A model generated the notes under the pieces. That model was not told where the DNA came from and did not search any database. It worked only from the letters and a program-made list of their open reading frames with translations. Made by a program: the position numbers and the translations under genes. A stretch of 64,000 bases of DNA from Thermoleophilaceae bacterium (GTDB taxonomy: Bacteria; Actinomycetota; Thermoleophilia; Solirubrobacterales; Thermoleophilaceae): assembly GCA_036269895.1 (NCBI GenBank), contig DATBDN010000004.1, forward strand, positions 4,759-68,758, given 5' to 3'. Each line of letters starts with the position of its first letter. Position 1 is the stretch's first letter. Positions 1 to 7,214 of the stretch are shown piece by piece.

Positions 1-357
1 CGCCAGATGGACCCGGATGCATGACTCGTAATCCATCACCGTCGAGGTCGCGAGCTGGCGACGGCGGCAGTCGCGGATGAACTCCGTGCCGGCTTCCGCG
101 AGCGTCACGCGCTCGGCTACGGGCGGTGGGGCCGCCGTCTGGATTAGTTCCCGCAGGCGCTTCTCGGCTTGGACGCGGGTCAGCCCCTCGCGAGATCCGA
201 CAGCACGCTTAGGACCGAGCGCACGACGAACGACGCGCCCGTCGACCCGAACCTGCCCGTACCACGTCTCGCCGCCGCGGGCGTTGCGCCGGGTCCAGAG
301 CGACCCGCTGCCGTAACCCCTCGCTGTGCCGCCGCGCCTGGCCGTCACGAGCCACAT
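1..357 (-). CDS. int: Tyrosine recombinase / phage-type integrase, N-terminal part (gene runs off the left edge)
   Basis: Own translation of the minus strand from ATG at 355-357: MWLVTARRGGTARGYGSGSLWTRRNARGGETWYGQVRVDGRVVRRALGPK..GLTRVQAEKRLRELI..VTLAEAGTEFIRDCRRRQLATSTVMDYESCIRVHLA. This looks like an integrase arm plus core-binding region. It is absent from the ORF track because there is no stop inside the window. It lies 45 bp downstream of xis. Confidence 0.7.
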   Translation of the reverse strand, partial: MWLVTARRGGTARGYGSGSLWTRRNARGGETWYGQVRVDGRVVRRALGPKRAVGSREGLTRVQAEKRLRELIQTAAPPPVAERVTLAEAGTEFIRDCRRRQLATSTVMDYESCIRVHLA

Positions 358-402: not shown

Positions 403-609
403 TTACACACCGCGCGCGTACGCCCGGGCGCCTCGCGCCGGCGCCTCGATCTCTGCGATCCAGGCCTCGATCGCGTCGCGCCGGTAGCGGCGGTAGCGGC
501 CGAGCGTGACGGTCGGGATCCGCCCGCGACGCGACTGCTCGTACACCCACGAGGTGGGAACGCCAAGCAGCGTCGCCACCTCTCCGGCGGTGAGCAAGGA
601 AGGGCTCAC
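403..609 (-). CDS. xis: Excisionase-family helix-turn-helix DNA-binding protein
   Basis: 68 aa: LLTAGEVATLLGVPTSWVYEQSRRGRIPTVTLGRYRRYRRDAIEAWI matches the excisionase/MerR-like HTH_17 pattern. It sits directly upstream of int on the same strand. Confidence 0.8.
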   Translation of the reverse strand: MSPSLLTAGEVATLLGVPTSWVYEQSRRGRIPTVTLGRYRRYRRDAIEAWIAEIEAPARGARAYARGV

Positions 610-1399: not shown

Positions 1400-1617
1400 C
1401 TAATGCTCGTTCGTGCTTCTTCTGTCTTCTTGTTCGTCGTTTGGCTTTTTCGTTTCGGGTCGACGCGCTTCTTGGCTTCTTAGAATTTCTGTCTTTGTGT
1501 TTCTTGTGTCTTGATCAATTTCTTGACCTTTGACATCTGGAATATTCAGTTGCTGCTCTCTGTCTCTGTTTGTCTCTTTGTCTCTGTAGTTCTTCTCGAC
1601 AACCACATCGATCTCTT
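1400..1617. other. Anomalous low-GC (~40-47%), T/C-skewed segment inside a ~70% GC region
   Basis: Hand counts of 60-nt blocks give 24-28 G+C. The plus strand is almost all pyrimidine. It contains short direct repeats (TGTCTCT at 1561-1567, 1571-1577, 1579-1585) and several TTCTTG units. Confidence 0.8.
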
Positions 1618-1708
1618 CCGCTCCCGCCGATCCGACCCCGGTTCCCCACCTTGTGTGGGGGGGCGGGGTCGGATCGGCGGGAGCGGACCACCAGCGCTGA
1701 TTCGCCAC
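1400..1708 (-). CDS. Questionable ORF encoding a highly charged low-complexity peptide
   Basis: 102-aa track ORF (..VVVEKNYRDKETNRDREQQLNIPDVKGQEIDQDTRNTKTEILRSQEARRPETKKPNDEQEDRRSTNEH). It uses AT-rich codons (AGA, ACA, AAA, GAA) that are atypical for this genome. Its N-terminal part is read through the 23-bp hairpin. Confidence 0.2.
   Translation of the reverse strand: MANQRWWSAPADPTPPPHTRWGTGVGSAGAEEIDVVVEKNYRDKETNRDREQQLNIPDVKGQEIDQDTRNTKTEILRSQEARRPETKKPNDEQEDRRSTNEH
1618..1686. repeat. Perfect 23-bp inverted repeat with a nested 6-bp stem in the loop
   Basis: CCGCTCCCGCCGATCCGACCCCG (1618-1640) is the exact reverse complement of CGGGGTCGGATCGGCGGGAGCGG (1664-1686). The loop contains CCCCAC (1644-1649) and GTGGGG (1655-1660). 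There is no T-tract on either side. Confidence 0.9.
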
Positions 1709-1998: not shown

Positions 1999-2328
1999 CT
2001 AGCCCAACTGAACGACGGCGGTACGCCCGTCGGCGGACAGTGCGAGCGCACCGACCGCCGACCCGACTCCGGGTTCGAAGACGGTTTCACCTCGCTGACT
2101 GCCGCCATAGGTCCCGCGATAGCGGAACCGAAGCCCGGTCTCGTCGTGTAATTGTATGTTCGAGAACAGCTCTCGTCCCACGCGAACGGTCTCCGGGAGG
2201 TCATCGGTGCCGTTCGGAAGCCGCCACTGAATACGCACGCGCGCCTCCTCGAGGACCATCGCATCCACGACGAGGCGGCCGAGTTCGAGCGGCGGGTTGA
2301 GATCGACCTGCATGTCACGTGGATTCAT
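1999..2328 (-). CDS. Hypothetical 109-aa protein, translationally coupled to the giant surface protein
   Basis: ATG overlaps the stop of the 2325..6713 gene (ATGA, 2325-2328). Third-position GC is high and the amino-acid composition is balanced. I recognise no family. Confidence 0.55.
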   Translation of the reverse strand: MNPRDMQVDLNPPLELGRLVVDAMVLEEARVRIQWRLPNGTDDLPETVRVGRELFSNIQLHDETGLRFRYRGTYGGSQRGETVFEPGVGSAVGALALSADGRTAVVQLG

Positions 2329-5300
2329 GGCTTCTCCACCCCCTCCTTACAAGCGACATCGCCGACGGGTTCGGGTTCTTCCCCGCCCTCGATGTACGCC
2401 TTTACTTCCCACGTGACGCAATCCCGGTCTCCCAGAACTACGTTCACGTTGTCCGAGTAAAACGCCGGTCCGCAATGCTGTGTATTAGTACACGACCAAT
2501 CCGGCGGCGGGGGACTCGGCGTGCTCTCTACCTTCTCTATGAAGAAGCGGATCCTGATAAAGCTCGCCGGCTGGTCGCAGTCAACGGTCGCACCAAGAAT
2601 CAACAACCACTCATCACCGGACGGTGCCAGATCTTCGCCGCCCTCCGTCGACAGAGTGCAATGGTTCGGGTCCTCCTGCAAGTTGTCCCGCGTGTTCCAA
2701 GATCCGCAGAAACTTAGGCTTCCGCTTAGCACGGTCGTCTGACTACCGGGGCGGTTCACGCGAAGGAAACAGATCCGAGTGGTCCCAGACCCTTGATCCT
2801 TGGTGAGCAGGCCGTGGTTCACAAGCGCGGCCAGTTCGGGTCCGCTGCCCGTATCCATTGCGCCAGCCTCGGACCGGGCTCGGAATGTGCCAACGTTAGA
2901 AACGATCGCTCCTGTCAGACCCTGCAGCGCCCCGGAAGACCACGTCAGGTCTCCCCGATTGACTAACCATCTGCGGTTAAGCGTGACACTCCCACCAGTT
3001 GGCCCGCCGATCGTTCCGGTGTTCGTCGGGCATAACACCGTCTTGCCCGTGCCCGACATCGTTCCGCCGGTCCAATACAGCGAGCCGCAGATGTCGAGCT
3101 CGGCTGAACCCGTGAGCGCCCCCGAGAACAGTTTCAGGTTCCGCAGGGTCGAGGCCGTGGATGTCCCCTCGAGATCGAGCGTGCCGCCGTTGATCGCGAT
3201 GTTGCCGTCCGGCGCGTCGAGCGTCACCGTGGAGATCGTCCCGCTATCGATGTCGATCTCGCCGTCGCCGTATGTCCTCAGCGAAGCGGGAGCGAGACAC
3301 TGGTCGGGCGTCATCCCGAAGGTGAGCACGCCGCCCGCCTGCCAGGCCCCAGTCGGGCTCGTTAACGAGCACTGCGGGTCGTAGAGGCTTTCAATACCGA
3401 GCGCGCCGGCCTCGACGTCGACCGTGCCATGATTGTCGACCGGGATCTTGACGGTCGTCGTCGACGCGTCGCTCTTGCGCAAGGTCCCGGTGATGTGCAA
3501 CCGAGGGAGCGGGCCGCTCGGGTAGACGTCGAGGGCGTTGCCAGAGCCGTTCAGAGTGAACGTCCCCGGGTCGTCGATCAACGCCGCCTTGTCGGCCAGG
3601 ATCTGCCCGCCCGTGTAGGTCAGCGTGCCCTGGTTGCGGAAGGTGGCGCCGTCGATCGAGAGCGTGCCGCCGGAGACGGTGGCAGTCGCCGTCGGAGCGA
3701 CGATCAGCGTGGCGCCGGGGTATGCGGTCATCCAGGCGCCCGAACCGACGGCGTCGAGCCGGCTCGCGACCGTGAGCGGCCCGGCGCCGCCGAAGCCGCC
3801 GCCGCGCCAGGTCAGCGAGTCGACCGTCGAACCGGTCTGCGCGTCGGTAAGGGTGAGGAAAGGCGCGTTGACGTTCGCCTCGAGCGCGCCGCCATGGATC
3901 GAGCCGGCGGTCGCGTCGCCGCCGTCGAAGAGCATGTGGCCGATGAGCTGCGCCGACTGGCCGAGGTAGAACGAGCCGCCGTTGAAATCGACGGTCGCGC
4001 CCGACTCCGCCTGCCATGAGCCGCCGGCCGGCTGGCCGGCGCCGCCGCCGCCCTTAAAGCGGAGCGTGCCGGTCTGGGCATCGATCGTGCCCGTGCCCTC
4101 GTTGTCGACCGCGAACTCGACCGTCGTCGTCGCGCCGCCCTGGCTCTTGCGGATCACGCCAGTGTTGCGCAGCTGCGGGCGTGTGCCGCTCGGGTAGTAC
4201 CAGAGCGCGGTTCCCTCACCGTTCAGAACGAGCGTCCCGGAGTTGTCGAGCAGCCCGGCGTTGTCGCCGGCGATCTGCCCGCCCGTGTAGGTCAGCGTGC
4301 CCTGGTTGCGGAAGGTGGCGCCGTCGATCGAGAGCGTGCCGCCGGAGACGGTGGCAGTCGCCGTCGGAGCGACGATCAGCGTGGCGCCGGGGTATGCGGT
4401 CATCCAGGCGCTGCCATCGCCGAGCGCGCGGAGTTGACTCGTGATCGTCAACGTGCCCGCGACGGAGATTCCGCCGCCGTGCCAGGTCAGGGAGCCAACG
4501 GTCGAGGCCGTCTGTGAGTCGGCGAGCGTGAGCGCCGTGCCGTGGCTTGAGACGTCGAGGGCGGCAGCGCCGCCGAGCGAGCCGGCCGTGGCCCCGTCGC
4601 CGACGTAGATCGTGGCGCCGTCGGCCGCGCACGCGCGGTCGCTCGAGCCCGGCGCGCGGCTCGCCGACCAGTTCCCCGCAGTCGTCCACTGGCCGTCGCC
4701 GGCGCGGCCGTTCCAGACATCGGTGCAGCTGCCGGCTGCCGCCGGGGCGACGACGCCCGAGGCGGCGCTGGTCGCCGAGACGCCGGCGGGCGAAGCCGAG
4801 TTCGAAGCGGTCACGACCGCGCGCAGCGTGTTGCCGACGTCGGCCGCGACGACGACGTAGGTCGTCTTGGTCGCACCGGCGATGTCGGCGCAGCTCGCCC
4901 CGCTCGCGTCGCAGCGGCGCCACTGGTAGCTGTAGGTCTGCGGCGTCGTCCCGCCCCAGGCGCCGCGGTGGACGATCGTCGTCTGGCCCTGCTCGGGCGT
5001 GCCGACGAGCGTCGGCAGCCGGGTATTGACAGGAGCCGCGGCTCCGACGACCGCCGTGGCGGCGGAGCTCGCCGTCGTCGAGCCGCCGGAGTTGGCGGCG
5101 GTGACGGCCAGGCGCAGCGTCCCGCCGACATCGGCCGAGACGAGCACGTACGTCGAGCTGGTCGCGCCGGCGATGTCGGCGCAGCTCGCGCCGCCGGAGT
5201 CGCAACGGCGCCACTGGTAGGCATATGAGATCGGCGCGGCGCCGGACCAGCTGCCGGCGTCGCCCGTGAGCGTCTGGCCATCCTGCGCGCCGCCTGAGAT

Positions 5301-6713
5301 CGTCGGCGACGAGTTATTGGTCGGCGCGCCGCCGGTCACGACCGCGCTCGCCGGTGACGGCTTGTTGGCGGAGCCGGCGACGTTGCTGGCGCTGACGACG
5401 ACGCGCACGGTCTGGCCGACGTCGGCGCCGGCGACCGCATAGGTGTCTTGGGTCGCGCCAGTGATGTCGGCGCAGCCCGCGCCGCCGGAATCGCAGCGCT
5501 GCCACTGGTAGGCGTAGCTGAGCGGGGTCGTACCGCTCCAGCTGCCCTTGTCGGCGGTCAGCGTCTGGCCGGCCGCCGCGGTCCCTGCTAGCGACGGCGC
5601 CGCCGTGTTGGCGGGCGCCGTGCCGGCAACGGTCGCCGTCTGCCCCGAGGTCGCCGTCGAGTTGCCGGCGCTGTTCGTGCCCTTGACCTTTACCTGCAGC
5701 TTCTGGCCGACGTCCGGGCTCGTCAGCGCGTAGGTCGCGCCGGTGGCGCCGGAAACGTCGGCGCAGTTTGCGCCGGCTGAGTCGCAGCGCTGCCACTGGT
5801 AGCCGAACGTGATCGGGCTGAGCCCCGACCAGCTGCCGTCCGAGGTCGTCAGCATCTGGCCGTCCTGCGCCGTTCCCGTCAGCTGCGGCAGCGCCGTGTT
5901 GACCGGGAAGTTGGCGGCGTTCCAGTGCGCCTCGATCTGGGCGGCGCTGAGCGCGCTCGTGTAGAAGGCGACGTTCGAGAGCGAGCCCGCGAAGAGCGGG
6001 TCGCTCGTCGAGCGCGACTTACCGAGCCAACTGTTGGTCGTCGCGCCGAGCGTCGCCGGGTTGATCGTGGCGCCGCTCTGGCTCGCCGCGAGCGCGCCGT
6101 CGACGTAGAGGCGCAGCGTGCCGGCGCTGTCCTCGGTAACGGCGAGGTAGTGCCAGGCGCCAGCGGCGAGCGTCGTCGTGTCGACACTGAAGACGGTGCT
6201 CGAGCTCGAGCGGATCTCGAAGCGCAGCGGGTGATTGGTCGCCGTCGAGGCCGGCGTCAGGAACATGTAGCTCGTGTTCGACGAGCCGAAGTAGAAGACG
6301 CGCTGGTTGTACGAGGCGCCGCCGGTCCAGTTGACCCAGGCCTCGGCGCTGAAGGCGCTCGCGCCAGACAAGGGCGTTGACGGGATCGTCGCCACCGAGC
6401 TCGAGCCGTTGAAGCTCCCGGCCTTCGAGCCGCCGAACGGCCCGGCGCCGCCGAGCGTGATCGCGGTGTTGGTGGCGTTGCGGGTGCCGGCTGAATCGCT
6501 GAGGGTCGTGGCGCCGGCCGCCTCGTCGAAGCGGTACTGGGTCGCGGGACTGTCGCCCGCGACTGTGGTCTCGTAGGTCGTGTAGGGCTCGACCGGGCCG
6601 GACGCTGTCGCGGCGACGACGGCGAGCAAGGCGACGGCGAGGGCGGTAGCGAGGCCGAGCTTGCGCGTCCGTGCGAGCGCAGCCGTCAGCGTCCGGCGAA
6701 GACCAGCGAGCAT
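2325..6713 (-). CDS. 1462-aa secreted/anchored multidomain protein: N-terminal signal/TM, LamG (concanavalin-A-like) domain, 4 Ig-like repeats, repeated beta-helix-like modules, Cys-rich C-terminal domain
   Basis: Hydrophobic LGLATALAVALLAVVAATASG lies near the N-terminus. The LamG_3-like segment is FNGSSS..AEAWVNW..WHYLAVTEDSAGTLRLYVDGAL..GSLSNVAFY. Four ~95-aa repeats carry G.WSG..P..Y.YQW.RCD..G..C.DI.GAT..TY. Gly/Thr-rich ~160-aa modules are duplicated at 224-aa spacing. Confidence 0.9.
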   Translation of the reverse strand: MLAGLRRTLTAALARTRKLGLATALAVALLAVVAATASGPVEPYTTYETTVAGDSPATQYRFDEAAGATTLSDSAGTRNATNTAITLGGAGPFGGSKAGSFNGSSSVATIPSTPLSGASAFSAEAWVNWTGGASYNQRVFYFGSSNTSYMFLTPASTATNHPLRFEIRSSSSTVFSVDTTTLAAGAWHYLAVTEDSAGTLRLYVDGALAASQSGATINPATLGATTNSWLGKSRSTSDPLFAGSLSNVAFYTSALSAAQIEAHWNAANFPVNTALPQLTGTAQDGQMLTTSDGSWSGLSPITFGYQWQRCDSAGANCADVSGATGATYALTSPDVGQKLQVKVKGTNSAGNSTATSGQTATVAGTAPANTAAPSLAGTAAAGQTLTADKGSWSGTTPLSYAYQWQRCDSGGAGCADITGATQDTYAVAGADVGQTVRVVVSASNVAGSANKPSPASAVVTGGAPTNNSSPTISGGAQDGQTLTGDAGSWSGAAPISYAYQWRRCDSGGASCADIAGATSSTYVLVSADVGGTLRLAVTAANSGGSTTASSAATAVVGAAAPVNTRLPTLVGTPEQGQTTIVHRGAWGGTTPQTYSYQWRRCDASGASCADIAGATKTTYVVVAADVGNTLRAVVTASNSASPAGVSATSAASGVVAPAAAGSCTDVWNGRAGDGQWTTAGNWSASRAPGSSDRACAADGATIYVGDGATAGSLGGAAALDVSSHGTALTLADSQTASTVGSLTWHGGGISVAGTLTITSQLRALGDGSAWMTAYPGATLIVAPTATATVSGGTLSIDGATFRNQGTLTYTGGQIAGDNAGLLDNSGTLVLNGEGTALWYYPSGTRPQLRNTGVIRKSQGGATTTVEFAVDNEGTGTIDAQTGTLRFKGGGGAGQPAGGSWQAESGATVDFNGGSFYLGQSAQLIGHMLFDGGDATAGSIHGGALEANVNAPFLTLTDAQTGSTVDSLTWRGGGFGGAGPLTVASRLDAVGSGAWMTAYPGATLIVAPTATATVSGGTLSIDGATFRNQGTLTYTGGQILADKAALIDDPGTFTLNGSGNALDVYPSGPLPRLHITGTLRKSDASTTTVKIPVDNHGTVDVEAGALGIESLYDPQCSLTSPTGAWQAGGVLTFGMTPDQCLAPASLRTYGDGEIDIDSGTISTVTLDAPDGNIAINGGTLDLEGTSTASTLRNLKLFSGALTGSAELDICGSLYWTGGTMSGTGKTVLCPTNTGTIGGPTGGSVTLNRRWLVNRGDLTWSSGALQGLTGAIVSNVGTFRARSEAGAMDTGSGPELAALVNHGLLTKDQGSGTTRICFLRVNRPGSQTTVLSGSLSFCGSWNTRDNLQEDPNHCTLSTEGGEDLAPSGDEWLLILGATVDCDQPASFIRIRFFIEKVESTPSPPPPDWSCTNTQHCGPAFYSDNVNVVLGDRDCVTWEVKAYIEGGEEPEPVGDVACKEGVEKP
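3600..3739 (-). repeat. Copy 1 of a 140-bp perfect intragenic direct repeat
   Basis: Identical to 4272-4411. The offset is 672 bp (224 codons). It encodes ..AWMTAYPGATLIVAPTATATVSGGTLSIDGATFRNQGTLTYTGGQI in both copies. Confidence 0.9.
4272..4411 (-). repeat. Copy 2 of the 140-bp perfect intragenic direct repeat
   Basis: Same 140 nt as 3600-3739. The flanking module sequence is clearly diverged. Confidence 0.9.
4749..5894 (-). repeat. Four tandem Ig-like coding repeats (aa ~274-655 of the giant protein)
   Basis: Protein-level repeats each contain SWSG..P..Y.YQW.RCD..GA.CADI.GAT..TY.....DVG..L...V.A.N. Confidence 0.8.
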
Positions 6714-6979: not shown

Positions 6980-7030
6980 TGGAAGCAGGCCCGGCAGGAT
7001 TCGAACCTGCAGACCTAGGGACTAGGAGCG
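6980..7030 (-). pseudogene. tRNA-like 3' fragment (T-arm, acceptor 3' strand, hairpin resembling a variable arm); no 5' half
   Basis: Minus strand reads ..CCTAGTCCCTAGGTCTGCAGGTTCGAATCCTGCCGGGCCTGCTTCCA, with a canonical GCAGG-TTCGAAT-CCTGC T-arm. No complementary 5' acceptor strand or foldable anticodon arm lies within 100 nt. Confidence 0.4.
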
Positions 7031-7057
7031 CCTCACTTCGAAGTCCGCGTTCCGAGA

Positions 7058-7079
7058 ATCGATGTCATATCGATGTCAC
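7058..7079. repeat. Tandem 11-bp direct repeat ATCGATGTCA(T/C) x2
   Basis: ATCGATGTCA occurs at 7058-7067 and at 7069-7078. Confidence 0.7.
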
Positions 7080-7134: not shown

Positions 7135-7140
7135 ACGAGG

Positions 7141-7214
7141 GGTGAGCGAGGGGACTCGAACCCCCGACCGCCTGGACCACAACCAGGAGCTCTACCAGCT
7201 GAGCTACGCCCACC
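7141..7214 (-). tRNA. trnH: tRNA-His (anticodon GTG), CCA not encoded
   Basis: Minus strand is G(-1)GTGGGCG TAGCTCAGCTGGTAGAGC T CCTGG-TTGTGGT-CCAGG .. GGGGGTTCGAGTCCCC(T) CGCTCAC C. It has the extra 5' G paired with discriminator C, and the acceptor, D, anticodon and T arms all fold. Confidence 0.9.

What the first reader, a model, noticed from the sequence alone, without database searches (positions are those of the whole stretch)
1999..2711. Lower-GC, Cys-rich C-terminal module of the giant surface protein plus a 4-nt-coupled 109-aa ORF: a swappable effector/partner cassette?
- The last ~125 codons of the 1462-aa protein (2328-2711) have about 52-65% GC in my 60-nt hand counts, against about 68-70% upstream.
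- This segment contains 8 Cys (..HCTLSTEGG..VDCDQP..WSCTNTQHCGPAFY..DRDCVTWEV..DVACKEG) and is unrelated to the repeat modules.
- The next ORF starts at the ATGA overlap.
- A conserved delivery scaffold with a compositionally distinct C-terminal tip, followed by a small coupled gene, is the layout of polymorphic toxin/immunity cassettes.
- It could equally be a lectin or adhesion tip with a chaperone.
- No Rhs/YD, LXG, WXG or known toxin motif is visible, so the functional call is speculative.
Basis: partly seen in the sequence, partly recalled or inferred. Interest (0 to 1): 0.6.

Follow-up and report, generated by a model that had tools for sequence, protein, structure and literature searches.

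The report
Exchangeable tip-and-partner cassette on giant protein
The last ~265 residues of a giant exported protein, together with the small gene overlapping its stop codon, form a recombined cassette laid out like a bacterial polymorphic toxin with its antidote, carried on an 11.5-kb mobile island at tRNA-His; that the tip is toxic is not shown.

Summary
- The low-GC segment starts near residue 1200-1235 (window ~3020-3125), not at 2711. It therefore includes the last repeat module.
- The stated span holds 7 Cys, not 8.

**Mosaic gene.** Third-codon-position GC (GC3) falls from 0.92 to 0.67. At the same place the closest relative changes. Residues 1-720 are 56-83% identical to two giant proteins of a same-genus genome. 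Residues 1201-1260 are 75% identical to rare cassette-type proteins.

**Variable tails.** The same-genus proteins align up to residue 1335, then carry an amidase tail or a glycosidase-like tail. More distant scaffold relatives carry DNase-like or Ntox37-like tails. Each is followed by a small coupled ORF.

**The tip family.** It is very rare: 5 clusters among 1.84 billion representatives. One subtype is followed by the same 81-aa ORF family in 4 of 4 contigs. Copies lacking the gene's 5' part sit at the edge of other tRNA-integrated elements.

**Island context.** The whole locus lies in an 11.5-kb tRNA-His island.

**Verdict.** The swappable effector/partner cassette reading is supported. Toxin and immunity function is not shown:
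- No fold or family match exists for the tip or the 109-aa ORF.
- No conserved catalytic residues are seen in the tip.
- The partner has no export signal.
- Homologous tips pair with non-homologous partners.

Earlier scan notes on this same window flagged the island. Nothing like this was found on other DNA.

The parts
2328..2708 (-). C-terminal tip, residues 1336-1462: acidic (pI 4.1), 7 Cys, predicted all-beta, belonging to no described family
   Evidence: Translation and Cys positions. No Pfam, NCBIfam, PHROGs or PDB match. Only 4 relatives besides itself in 1.84 billion representatives. Two further tip-bearing genes turned up later upstream of partner-ORF homologues. Cys positions conserved. 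pI. All-beta secondary structure in a low-confidence model.
2709..3125 (-). Third beta-rich module, residues ~1197-1335: the conserved arm of the cassette, holding the recombination junction
   Evidence: Identity to the cassette-type proteins P0006 and P0052 jumps from about 30% to 75% at residue ~1200. GC3 change-point at codon 1225-1237. GC3 of this segment 0.71.
1999..2328 (-). 109-aa partner ORF (P0002), start overlapping the giant gene's stop (ATGA), GGAG 5 nt upstream, no signal peptide
   Evidence: No homologue other than itself among 5.8 billion clusters. None in 60 relatives' genomes. Codon-usage score. Fold model unusable (pLDDT 33).
3126..6713 (-). Scaffold, residues 1-1196: signal peptide, LamG domain, four Ig-like repeats, two near-duplicate beta-rich modules
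   Evidence: Pfam Laminin_G_3, SCAB-Ig and IG_AIR9. Residues 1-720 are 56-83% identical to two giant proteins of same-genus genome G001. GC3 0.92.
7139..7213 (-). Intact tRNA-His; its 3' 48 bases (7138-7185) are the proximal attachment repeat of the island
   Evidence: ARAGORN. A 45/48 direct repeat lies at contig C4:394-441, 11.5 kb away and unique in the assembly. That distal copy is 100% identical over 50 bp to the native tRNA-His 3' end of G001.
6980..7030 (-). 3' half of a tRNA-Arg(TCT), lying between tRNA-His and the giant gene
   Evidence: 97% identical over 34 nt to the intact tRNA-Arg(TCT) on contig C79. Sequence read.
403..609 (-). Excisionase-type HTH_17 gene of the island
   Evidence: Pfam HTH_17 4.8e-13. 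PHROGs excisionase families.
1..357 (-). 5' part of the island's tyrosine integrase gene (394 aa), which continues left of the window
   Evidence: Pfam Phage_integrase 1.1e-36. phrog_1 4.8e-77. Gene position.

Best explanation
**What the protein is.** The giant gene encodes a Sec-exported stalk: signal peptide, LamG domain, four Ig-like repeats and beta-rich modules. The family's C-terminal end is exchangeable, as in polymorphic toxin systems.

**What the cassette is.** In this genome the exchangeable unit has three parts:
- the last beta-rich module, which serves as the homology arm;
- a 126-residue acidic tip with 6-7 Cys;
- the 109-aa ORF that overlaps the stop codon.

**How it got there.** The unit was grafted onto a genus-type scaffold by homologous recombination near residue 1200.

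**How it spreads.** Copies of the same cassette type that lack the gene's 5' part travel on other small tRNA-integrating elements.

**Where it sits.** The whole gene lies on an 11.5-kb tRNA-His island.

**Most likely roles.** The tip is the effector displayed or released at the end of the stalk, and it acts on neighbouring cells. The 109-aa protein is its cognate partner, probably an immunity protein made by translational coupling.

**Shown:** the mosaic structure, the variable tails on a shared scaffold, the discrete tip-plus-partner module in relatives, and carriage on mobile elements.

**Inferred:** export, toxicity, immunity, and the way the tip reaches its target.

**How sure.** I put about 0.7 on an exchangeable cassette in a family with variable C-terminal ends. 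I put about 0.4 on the narrower claim that the tip is a toxin and the 109-aa protein its immunity factor. The 0.55 given is for the statement as a whole.
For: **Mosaic gene**
- GC3 is 0.918 before codon ~1232 and 0.671 after it.
- Identity to the cassette-type proteins P0006 and P0052 is 27-38% for residues 961-1200 and 75% for residues 1201-1260.
- Residues 1-720 are 56-83% identical to G001's two giant proteins.

**Variable ends on a shared scaffold**
- The BLASTP alignment of P0001 residues 24-1335 to G001 protein A ends at the tip's first residue.
- Protein A ends in Amidase_6 at 39 bits, above the cut-off. Protein B ends in a weak Glyco_hydro_cc match.
- Distant relatives end in DNase_NucA_NucB at 24.6 bits, in sub-threshold Ntox37, or in other tails.

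**Coupled small ORFs**
- Every relative examined has a small ORF 0-70 nt downstream.
- P0014 and P0016 share the same tail type and have homologous downstream ORFs (40% identity, E 3e-30).
- G001's downstream ORFs begin with a membrane or signal segment, as expected if the amidase and glycosidase-like tails act on the cell wall.

**Composition**
- Tail plus downstream ORF have lower GC3 than the body in G001 A and B and in P0019.

**The tip family behaves as a module**
- An 81-aa ORF family follows the tip gene in 4 of 4 contigs.
- DNA similarity between contigs L036 and L022 stops right at the end of that ORF.
- P0005 and P0006 lack the 5' part and the signal peptide but remain open frames.

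**Mobile carriage**
- The tRNA-His island has 48-bp repeats, an integrase and an excisionase.
- In L022 the cassette lies in an 8.1-kb element. That element is bounded by tRNA-Phe and a perfect 44-bp repeat and carries a TrwC relaxase.
- In L023 a tRNA 3' fragment lies directly upstream of the cassette.

**Literature parallel**
- Orphan CT/immunity modules that keep homology to the main gene, and cdi loci on tRNA islands, are described in PMC4927057. The general principles are in PMC3482391.
Against: **Nothing identifies the tip as a toxin**
- There is no family, PDB or fold match.
- The invariant residues are Cys, Gly, Pro, hydrophobic residues, one Arg and one Glu. There is no His, Asp or Lys.
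- The tip is acidic and probably disulfide-bonded, which fits a binding domain as well as a toxin.

**The partner is poorly supported**
- P0002 has no export signal although the tip is exported. An immunity role would therefore need the tip to act inside cells.
- P0002 has no homologue anywhere, and its model is unusable.

**Pairing is not strict**
- Homologous tips (29-46% identity) are followed by non-homologous ORFs of 81, 109 and at least 214 aa.
- Only a faint P0002-P0013 similarity exists (5 of 500 shuffles reach the observed score).
- Tip and partner diverging together is expected for any two linked genes, so it does not by itself show functional coupling.

**Divergence is graded, not sharp**
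- Identity is about 60% in the module and about 40% in the tip.

**Limited sampling**
- All copies of this exact locus come from one population. The three metagenome contigs match the window's contig at 99.96-100%.
Confidence: 0.55

Rival explanations
1. The tip is a non-toxic binding or adhesion domain (lectin-like or Ig-like, held by disulfides) at the end of a surface stalk. It varies because binding targets vary. The small downstream ORFs are unrelated island or element genes that happen to be co-transcribed.
For: - The tip is predicted all-beta, and the only weak Foldseek matches are Ig-like sandwiches.
- It has conserved Cys, is acidic, and has no conserved catalytic-type residues.
- P0002 and the 81-aa family lack signal peptides.
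- Homologous tips have non-homologous downstream ORFs.
- The scaffold carries LamG and Ig-like domains typical of adhesins.
Against: - Scaffold relatives end in enzyme or toxin-type domains, not binding domains.
- The 81-aa ORF stays next to the tip in 4 of 4 contigs, and DNA homology ends right after it.
- Tip-plus-ORF copies lacking the 5' part stay open on mobile elements, which is hard to explain for an adhesin that cannot be exported.
- The ATGA overlap with a ribosome-binding site suggests co-translation.
Confidence: 0.25
2. The 3' end is a neutral relic of past recombination. The tip cassette is decaying cargo of integrative elements, and the 109-aa ORF is not a functional gene.
For: - P0002 has no homologue and its model has pLDDT 33.
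- Chance ORFs of this length are common here.
- An antisense frame ties its codon-usage score.
- Relatives P0005 and P0006 lack the 5' part.
- The neighbouring 102-aa ORF has no coding signal.
Against: - The tip and the module have no frameshifts or stops, and all Cys are conserved across relatives.
- P0002's frame is the only open one and scores above the tip's true frame.
- It occupies exactly the slot filled by a small ORF in every relative examined.
- It has a start-stop overlap and a GGAG.
Confidence: 0.12

Closest known systems
CdiA-CT/CdiI and Rhs-CT/RhsI systems with orphan cassettes (PMC4927057; principles in PMC3482391)
   Same: - A long exported stalk ends in an exchangeable C-terminal domain.
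- A small gene follows directly downstream.
- Cassettes lacking the 5' part keep a stretch of the conserved stalk as a homology arm.
[quoted passage not shown]
- The cassette differs in base composition from the stalk.
   Different: - No TPS domain, FHA or RHS repeats, or VENN or PxxxxDPxGL junction motif was found.
- No CdiB-type transporter is among the island ORFs scanned.
- The stalk is LamG plus Ig-like repeats plus undescribed beta-rich modules with a Sec signal.
- The truncated cassettes seen so far sit on separate small integrative elements, not in arrays behind the main gene.
- The tip is not a recognised toxin.
S8-PTS / BetaH polymorphic toxins of Gram-positive bacteria (PMC9424270; PMC13556192)
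   Same: - A signal peptide is followed by a beta-rich presumed receptor-binding part.
- A variable C-terminal toxin domain follows, with an immunity gene downstream.
- No dedicated secretion machine is needed.
   Different: - No S8 peptidase gene is among the island ORFs scanned.
- The protein is about ten times longer.
- The scaffold, tip and partner families are all different.
Streptomyces umbrella toxins (PMC11062931)
   Same: An actinobacterial, Sec-type exported polymorphic toxin family with variable C-terminal domains and linked immunity genes. This comparison rests on the abstract and on my own knowledge.
   Different: - Umbrella particles are assembled from several proteins with ALF repeats and lectins; none of these was found here.
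- This locus is a single giant polypeptide.
MuF polymorphic toxins on temperate phages (PMC5576092)
   Same: Polymorphic toxin cassettes are carried by integrating mobile elements.
   Different: The island has no MuF domain and no phage structural genes, only an integrase, an excisionase and a defence-like gene pair.

Membership tests
Polymorphic toxin systems (sensu PMC3482391) | Multi-domain protein with an N-terminal export signal or trafficking domain | tested here: met
   The N-terminus has a basic stretch, then a hydrophobic run, then ATA/SGP. This was read by eye; no signal-peptide predictor was available.
Polymorphic toxin systems (sensu PMC3482391) | Proteins that share the N-terminal scaffold carry unrelated C-terminal domains | tested here: met
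   - The G001 paralogues align up to residue 1335 and then carry Amidase_6 or a glycosidase-like tail.
- More distant relatives carry NucA/NucB-like, Ntox37-like and other tails.
Polymorphic toxin systems (sensu PMC3482391) | The C-terminal domain is a toxin (recognised toxin family or shown toxicity) | tested here: inconclusive
   - No match in Pfam, NCBIfam, PHROGs, PDB sequences or Foldseek.
- The model has pLDDT 47.
- Toxicity cannot be tested with these tools.
Polymorphic toxin systems (sensu PMC3482391) | An immunity gene lies directly downstream and changes with the toxin type | tested here: inconclusive
   - Adjacency and start-stop overlap are met.
- Partner type changes with tip subtype, and the 81-aa family is linked to the tip in 4 of 4 contigs.
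- Linkage alone could explain their joint divergence.
- P0002 is an orphan, and immunity itself is untested.
Polymorphic toxin systems (sensu PMC3482391) | Standalone or truncated cassettes exist, with signs of recombination into the main gene | tested here: met
   - P0005 and P0006 are copies lacking the 5' part.
- The mosaic junction shows in both identity and GC3.
CdiA (T5SS contact-dependent inhibition) | TPS secretion domain, FHA repeats, CdiB partner | tested here: not met
   No such Pfam domains in P0001. No CdiB-like gene among the island ORFs scanned.
Rhs/YD and LXG/WXG toxins | RHS/YD repeats, or an LXG or WXG100 N-terminal domain | tested here: not met
   None found in P0001 at E <= 1.
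tRNA-integrated genomic island with tyrosine integrase | Tyrosine integrase and excisionase, bounded by a direct repeat of the tRNA 3' end | tested here: met
   - Integrase and HTH_17 excisionase.
- A 45/48 direct repeat 11.5 kb apart, unique in the assembly.
- The distal copy equals the sister species' native tRNA-His 3' end.
tRNA-integrated genomic island with tyrosine integrase | An empty site in a close relative | tested here: inconclusive
   - G001 has tRNA-His, but its downstream flank is not syntenic.
- The tip and P0002 were not found in the 60 relatives searched.

The most novel reading that the evidence does not exclude
Small tRNA-integrating elements act as carriers of warhead-plus-partner cassettes that lack the gene's 5' part. 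Each cassette keeps one stalk module as a homology arm. After the element arrives, recombination grafts the cassette onto a resident giant stalk gene. The tip itself would be a new, non-enzymatic, disulfide-bonded effector type with a cytoplasmic partner of a new family.
Probability: 0.2. Interest if true: 0.65.

Novelty: new variant of a known kind. Interest (0 to 1): 0.45.

Why it matters
If correct, this extends the polymorphic-toxin principle to a new delivery scaffold: a Sec signal, LamG, Ig-like repeats and undescribed beta-rich modules. The host is an uncultured, GC-rich soil lineage. No paper in the searched library links polymorphic toxins with Thermoleophilia, the class to which one source assigns a distant scaffold relative. 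The window's own taxonomy was not determined.

It would also add one new effector domain family and at least three new partner families. It gives a clear natural example of cassette exchange, with the junction visible both in composition and in which relative is closest.

Carriage of the cassettes on very small integrative elements suggests a route for spreading such modules. By analogy with CDI loci (PMC4927057), it also suggests a way for the island to make itself hard to lose.

It is not a new principle.

Tried and rejected
- **Spurious tip hits.** P0008 (6163 aa) and P0010 from the exhaustive tip search have no conserved Cys and only repeated low-identity stretches.
- **Structure prediction.** The P0002 model has pLDDT 33. 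The module-plus-tip model has pLDDT 47 from a 4-sequence alignment.
- **Fold and PDB searches.** Foldseek against PDB gave nothing below E 0.01, only generic Ig-like sandwiches. PDB sequence searches found nothing.
- **Family scans.** PHROGs on the tip and P0002, and PADLOC on P0002, found nothing.
- **Collection scans.** A scan of GTDB species genomes with the cassette alignment found no relative. The metagenome scan found one distant stalk with no tip.
- **Paralogues.** None for the tip, P0002 or the beta-rich modules in the assembly. Only the Ig-like repeats recur.
- **Partner ORFs of relatives.** None is present in this island or genome.
- **Third attachment repeat.** None inside the island, so a tandem-element reading was not supported.
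- **Terminators.** The consensus scan found none on the gene strand.
- **Population variation.** The three metagenome contigs match the window's contig at 99.96-100%, so dN/dS could not be computed.
Full report
**1. What is in the sequence**

The minus strand carries a 1462-aa gene (2325-6713) and a 109-aa ORF (1999-2328). The ORF's ATG overlaps the giant gene's TGA as ATGA, and a GGAG lies 5 nt upstream.

The giant protein has these parts, in order:
- a signal-peptide-like N-terminus (read by eye);
- a LamG domain, residues 102-260;
- four Ig-like repeats, residues 280-660;
- three beta-rich modules of about 220 residues that match no family;
- a 126-residue acidic tail.

It begins earlier than stated. 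GC3 is 0.90-0.96 up to about residue 1140 and about 0.70 from about residue 1200 to the end. The best change-point is codon 1225-1237, with 0.918 before and 0.671 after.

The stated span holds 7 Cys, not 8. The small ORF has GC3 of 0.74. It is the only open frame in its stretch. It scores no worse on the genome's codon usage than the tip's own frame, although an antisense frame ties it.

**2. The locus lies on a mobile island**

- tRNA-His lies at 7139-7213 (-), with its 3' end facing the giant gene.
- Its last 48 bases recur as a 45/48 direct repeat at contig position C4:394-441. That is 4.3 kb left of the window and 11.5 kb away. The repeat is found nowhere else in the assembly.
- The distal copy is 100% identical over 50 bp to the native tRNA-His 3' end of the same-genus genome G001. 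This is expected if the element supplied the present 3' end of the tRNA and displaced the original.
- Between the repeats lie the giant gene, the 109-aa ORF, an HTH_17 excisionase, a tyrosine integrase, and a gene pair of 882 aa and 220 aa. The 882-aa protein matches the C-terminal part of the PADLOC Dsr1 model.
- A 3' half of tRNA-Arg(TCT) sits between tRNA-His and the giant gene.
- An empty site could not be shown, because G001's flank is not syntenic.
- The assembly is a metagenome-derived genome, 84.7% complete.

**3. The giant gene is a mosaic**

G001 has two neighbouring giant genes, A (2052 aa) and B (1410 aa).

| Residues of the window's protein | Identity to G001 A and B | Identity to cassette-type P0006 / P0052 |
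|---|---|---|
| 1-720 | 56-83% (43-83% across individual 60-residue bins) | not aligned |
| 721-1200 | 25-46% | 27-38% (from residue 961) |
| 1201-1260 | 39% (A only) | 75% |
| 1261-1320 | 44% (A only) | 48-50% |
| tip, 1336-1462 | no similarity | 37-63% |

The change of closest relative at about residue 1200 coincides with the GC3 break.

The unit of foreign origin is therefore the last module plus the tip, probably with the 109-aa ORF. It is not the tip alone.

**4. The scaffold family has exchangeable ends**

The single BLASTP alignment to G001 protein A runs from residue 24 to 1335 and stops at the tip's first residue.

| Protein | C-terminal tail | Downstream ORF |
|---|---|---|
| G001 A | Amidase_6, 39 bits (above cut-off); weak CHAP | 139 aa, starts with a membrane or signal segment |
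| G001 B | Glyco_hydro_cc, weak match | 321 aa, starts with a membrane or signal segment |
| P0019 | DNase_NucA_NucB, 24.6 bits (just above cut-off) | 181 aa |
| P0016, P0014 | Ntox37-like, sub-threshold (P0016); P0014's tail looks the same by eye but has no Pfam hit | 190 aa and 193 aa, 40% identical to each other |
| P0015, P0022 | another shared type | 148 aa for P0015 |

- The distant relatives P0014, P0015, P0016 and P0019 are 33-35% identical in the stalk.
- GC3 falls in the tail plus downstream ORF in G001 A (0.88 to 0.70 and 0.71), G001 B (0.85 to 0.71 and 0.79) and P0019 (0.82 to 0.52 and 0.51).
- This is the layout that defines polymorphic toxin systems (PMC3482391).

**5. The tip family**

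An exhaustive search of 1.84 billion representatives found only four relatives besides the protein itself. Two more tip-bearing genes turned up next to homologues of their partner ORF.

All keep the Cys positions and the C-terminal motif. The family splits into three subtypes by what follows the tip:
- an 81-aa family, in 4 of 4 contigs (L022, L023, L035, L036);
- the 109-aa ORF, in the window;
- an ORF of at least 214 aa, in L024.

| Pair of loci | Tip identity | Partner identity |
|---|---|---|
| L022 - L036 | 85% | 67% |
| L023 - L035 | 71% | 73% |
| other pairs within the 81-aa subtype | 50-55% | 38-43% |
| any pair with the window or L024 (tip 46% or less) | 29-46% | none detectable |

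- Linked genes diverge together anyway, so this is weak evidence of functional coupling.
- More telling is that DNA similarity between L036 and L022 ends exactly at the partner's stop codon.
- The partner also stays attached where the gene has lost its 5' part. P0006 has an open frame of 566 codons with no signal peptide. P0005 has 210 aa and starts inside the last module.
- P0002 shows only a faint similarity to the L024 partner: 5 of 500 shuffles reach the observed score.

**6. Other copies also ride small integrative elements**

- In L022 the truncated gene, its partner and a TrwC relaxase lie between tRNA-Phe and a perfect 44-bp repeat of its 3' part, 8.1 kb apart.
- In L023 a tRNA 3' fragment with its terminator hairpin lies directly upstream of the truncated gene.
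- Truncated cassettes that keep a homology arm, and toxin loci on tRNA islands, are both described for CDI and Rhs systems (PMC4927057).

**7. What remains unknown**

Nothing identifies the tip's activity.
- There is no family, PDB or fold match.
- The model has low confidence but is all-beta in the tip.
- The tip has pI 4.1, and no His, Asp or Lys is invariant.

These features fit a binding domain at least as well as an enzyme.

P0002 and the 81-aa family have no export signal. An immunity role would therefore imply that the tip acts inside cells, which sits oddly with a probably disulfide-bonded domain. P0002 has no homologue in 5.8 billion clusters or in 60 relatives' genomes. Its expression could not be checked.

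**8. Verdict**

This is an exchangeable C-terminal cassette with a coupled partner gene, in a family that behaves like polymorphic toxins, and it sits on a mobile island.
- The functional call is the most likely reading but is unproven. I put about 0.4 on toxin plus immunity specifically, and about 0.25 on a binding tip with an unrelated partner.
- This is a new variant of a known kind. The scaffold, tip and partner families are undescribed, but the principle is established.
- Earlier notes of this scan on the same window had flagged the island and the tRNA fragment. Nothing similar was recorded on other DNA.

Noticed in passing
L021:607-3910 (contig C4, left of the window; inside the island): Two co-oriented genes lie between the integrase and the distal attachment repeat. 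The 882-aa protein matches the C-terminal part of the PADLOC Dsr1 model (E 1e-33) but has no Pfam hit. The overlapping 220-aa protein gives only faint hits to Argonaute-associated nuclease models. This may be an undescribed two-gene defence cargo.
   Followed up: partly
window 6980-7079: A 3' half of tRNA-Arg(TCT), 97% identical over 34 nt to the intact gene on contig C79, lies next to a tandem 11-mer between tRNA-His and the giant gene. No second copy exists in the island. It looks like the scar of an earlier integration at a different tRNA.
   Followed up: partly
window 1400-1708: A stretch of about 200 bp is purine-rich on the minus strand and falls to 0.43 GC. The 102-aa ORF that public gene callers place here has no coding signal (score -0.32, the same as its antisense frame). 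A GC-rich inverted repeat adjoins it.
   Followed up: partly
L049:4610-17233 (same-genus genome G001): Two neighbouring giant paralogues are 78% identical over their first 880 residues. One ends in an amidase tail and the other in a glycosidase-like tail. Each is followed by a small ORF with a membrane or signal segment. They would make a good comparison set for this protein family.
   Followed up: partly
L050:1155-4053 (G001): A 413-aa fragment of the same stalk family, with Ig-like repeats and the start of the beta-rich part, lies next to a 577-aa RHS-repeat protein.
   Followed up: no
L022:9443-17660: An 8.1-kb integrative element is bounded by tRNA-Phe and a perfect 44-bp repeat. It holds the truncated tip gene, an 81-aa ORF, a TrwC relaxase-helicase, a weak HTH_17 protein and a 354-aa protein with no Pfam match that sits where an integrase would be expected.
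   Followed up: partly
window 3600-4411: The two near-duplicate beta-rich modules share long identical stretches. All three metagenome contigs of this locus break off inside the giant gene (at window 3739, 3704 and 4398), within or at the edge of these modules, so assemblers fail here.
   Followed up: no
own genome, contigs C30 (~26.2-29.2 kb) and C87 (~28.8-30.7 kb): Two other large open frames (1379 aa and 1087 aa) carry arrays of the same Ig-like repeat at 49-58% identity, but no beta-rich modules.
   Followed up: no
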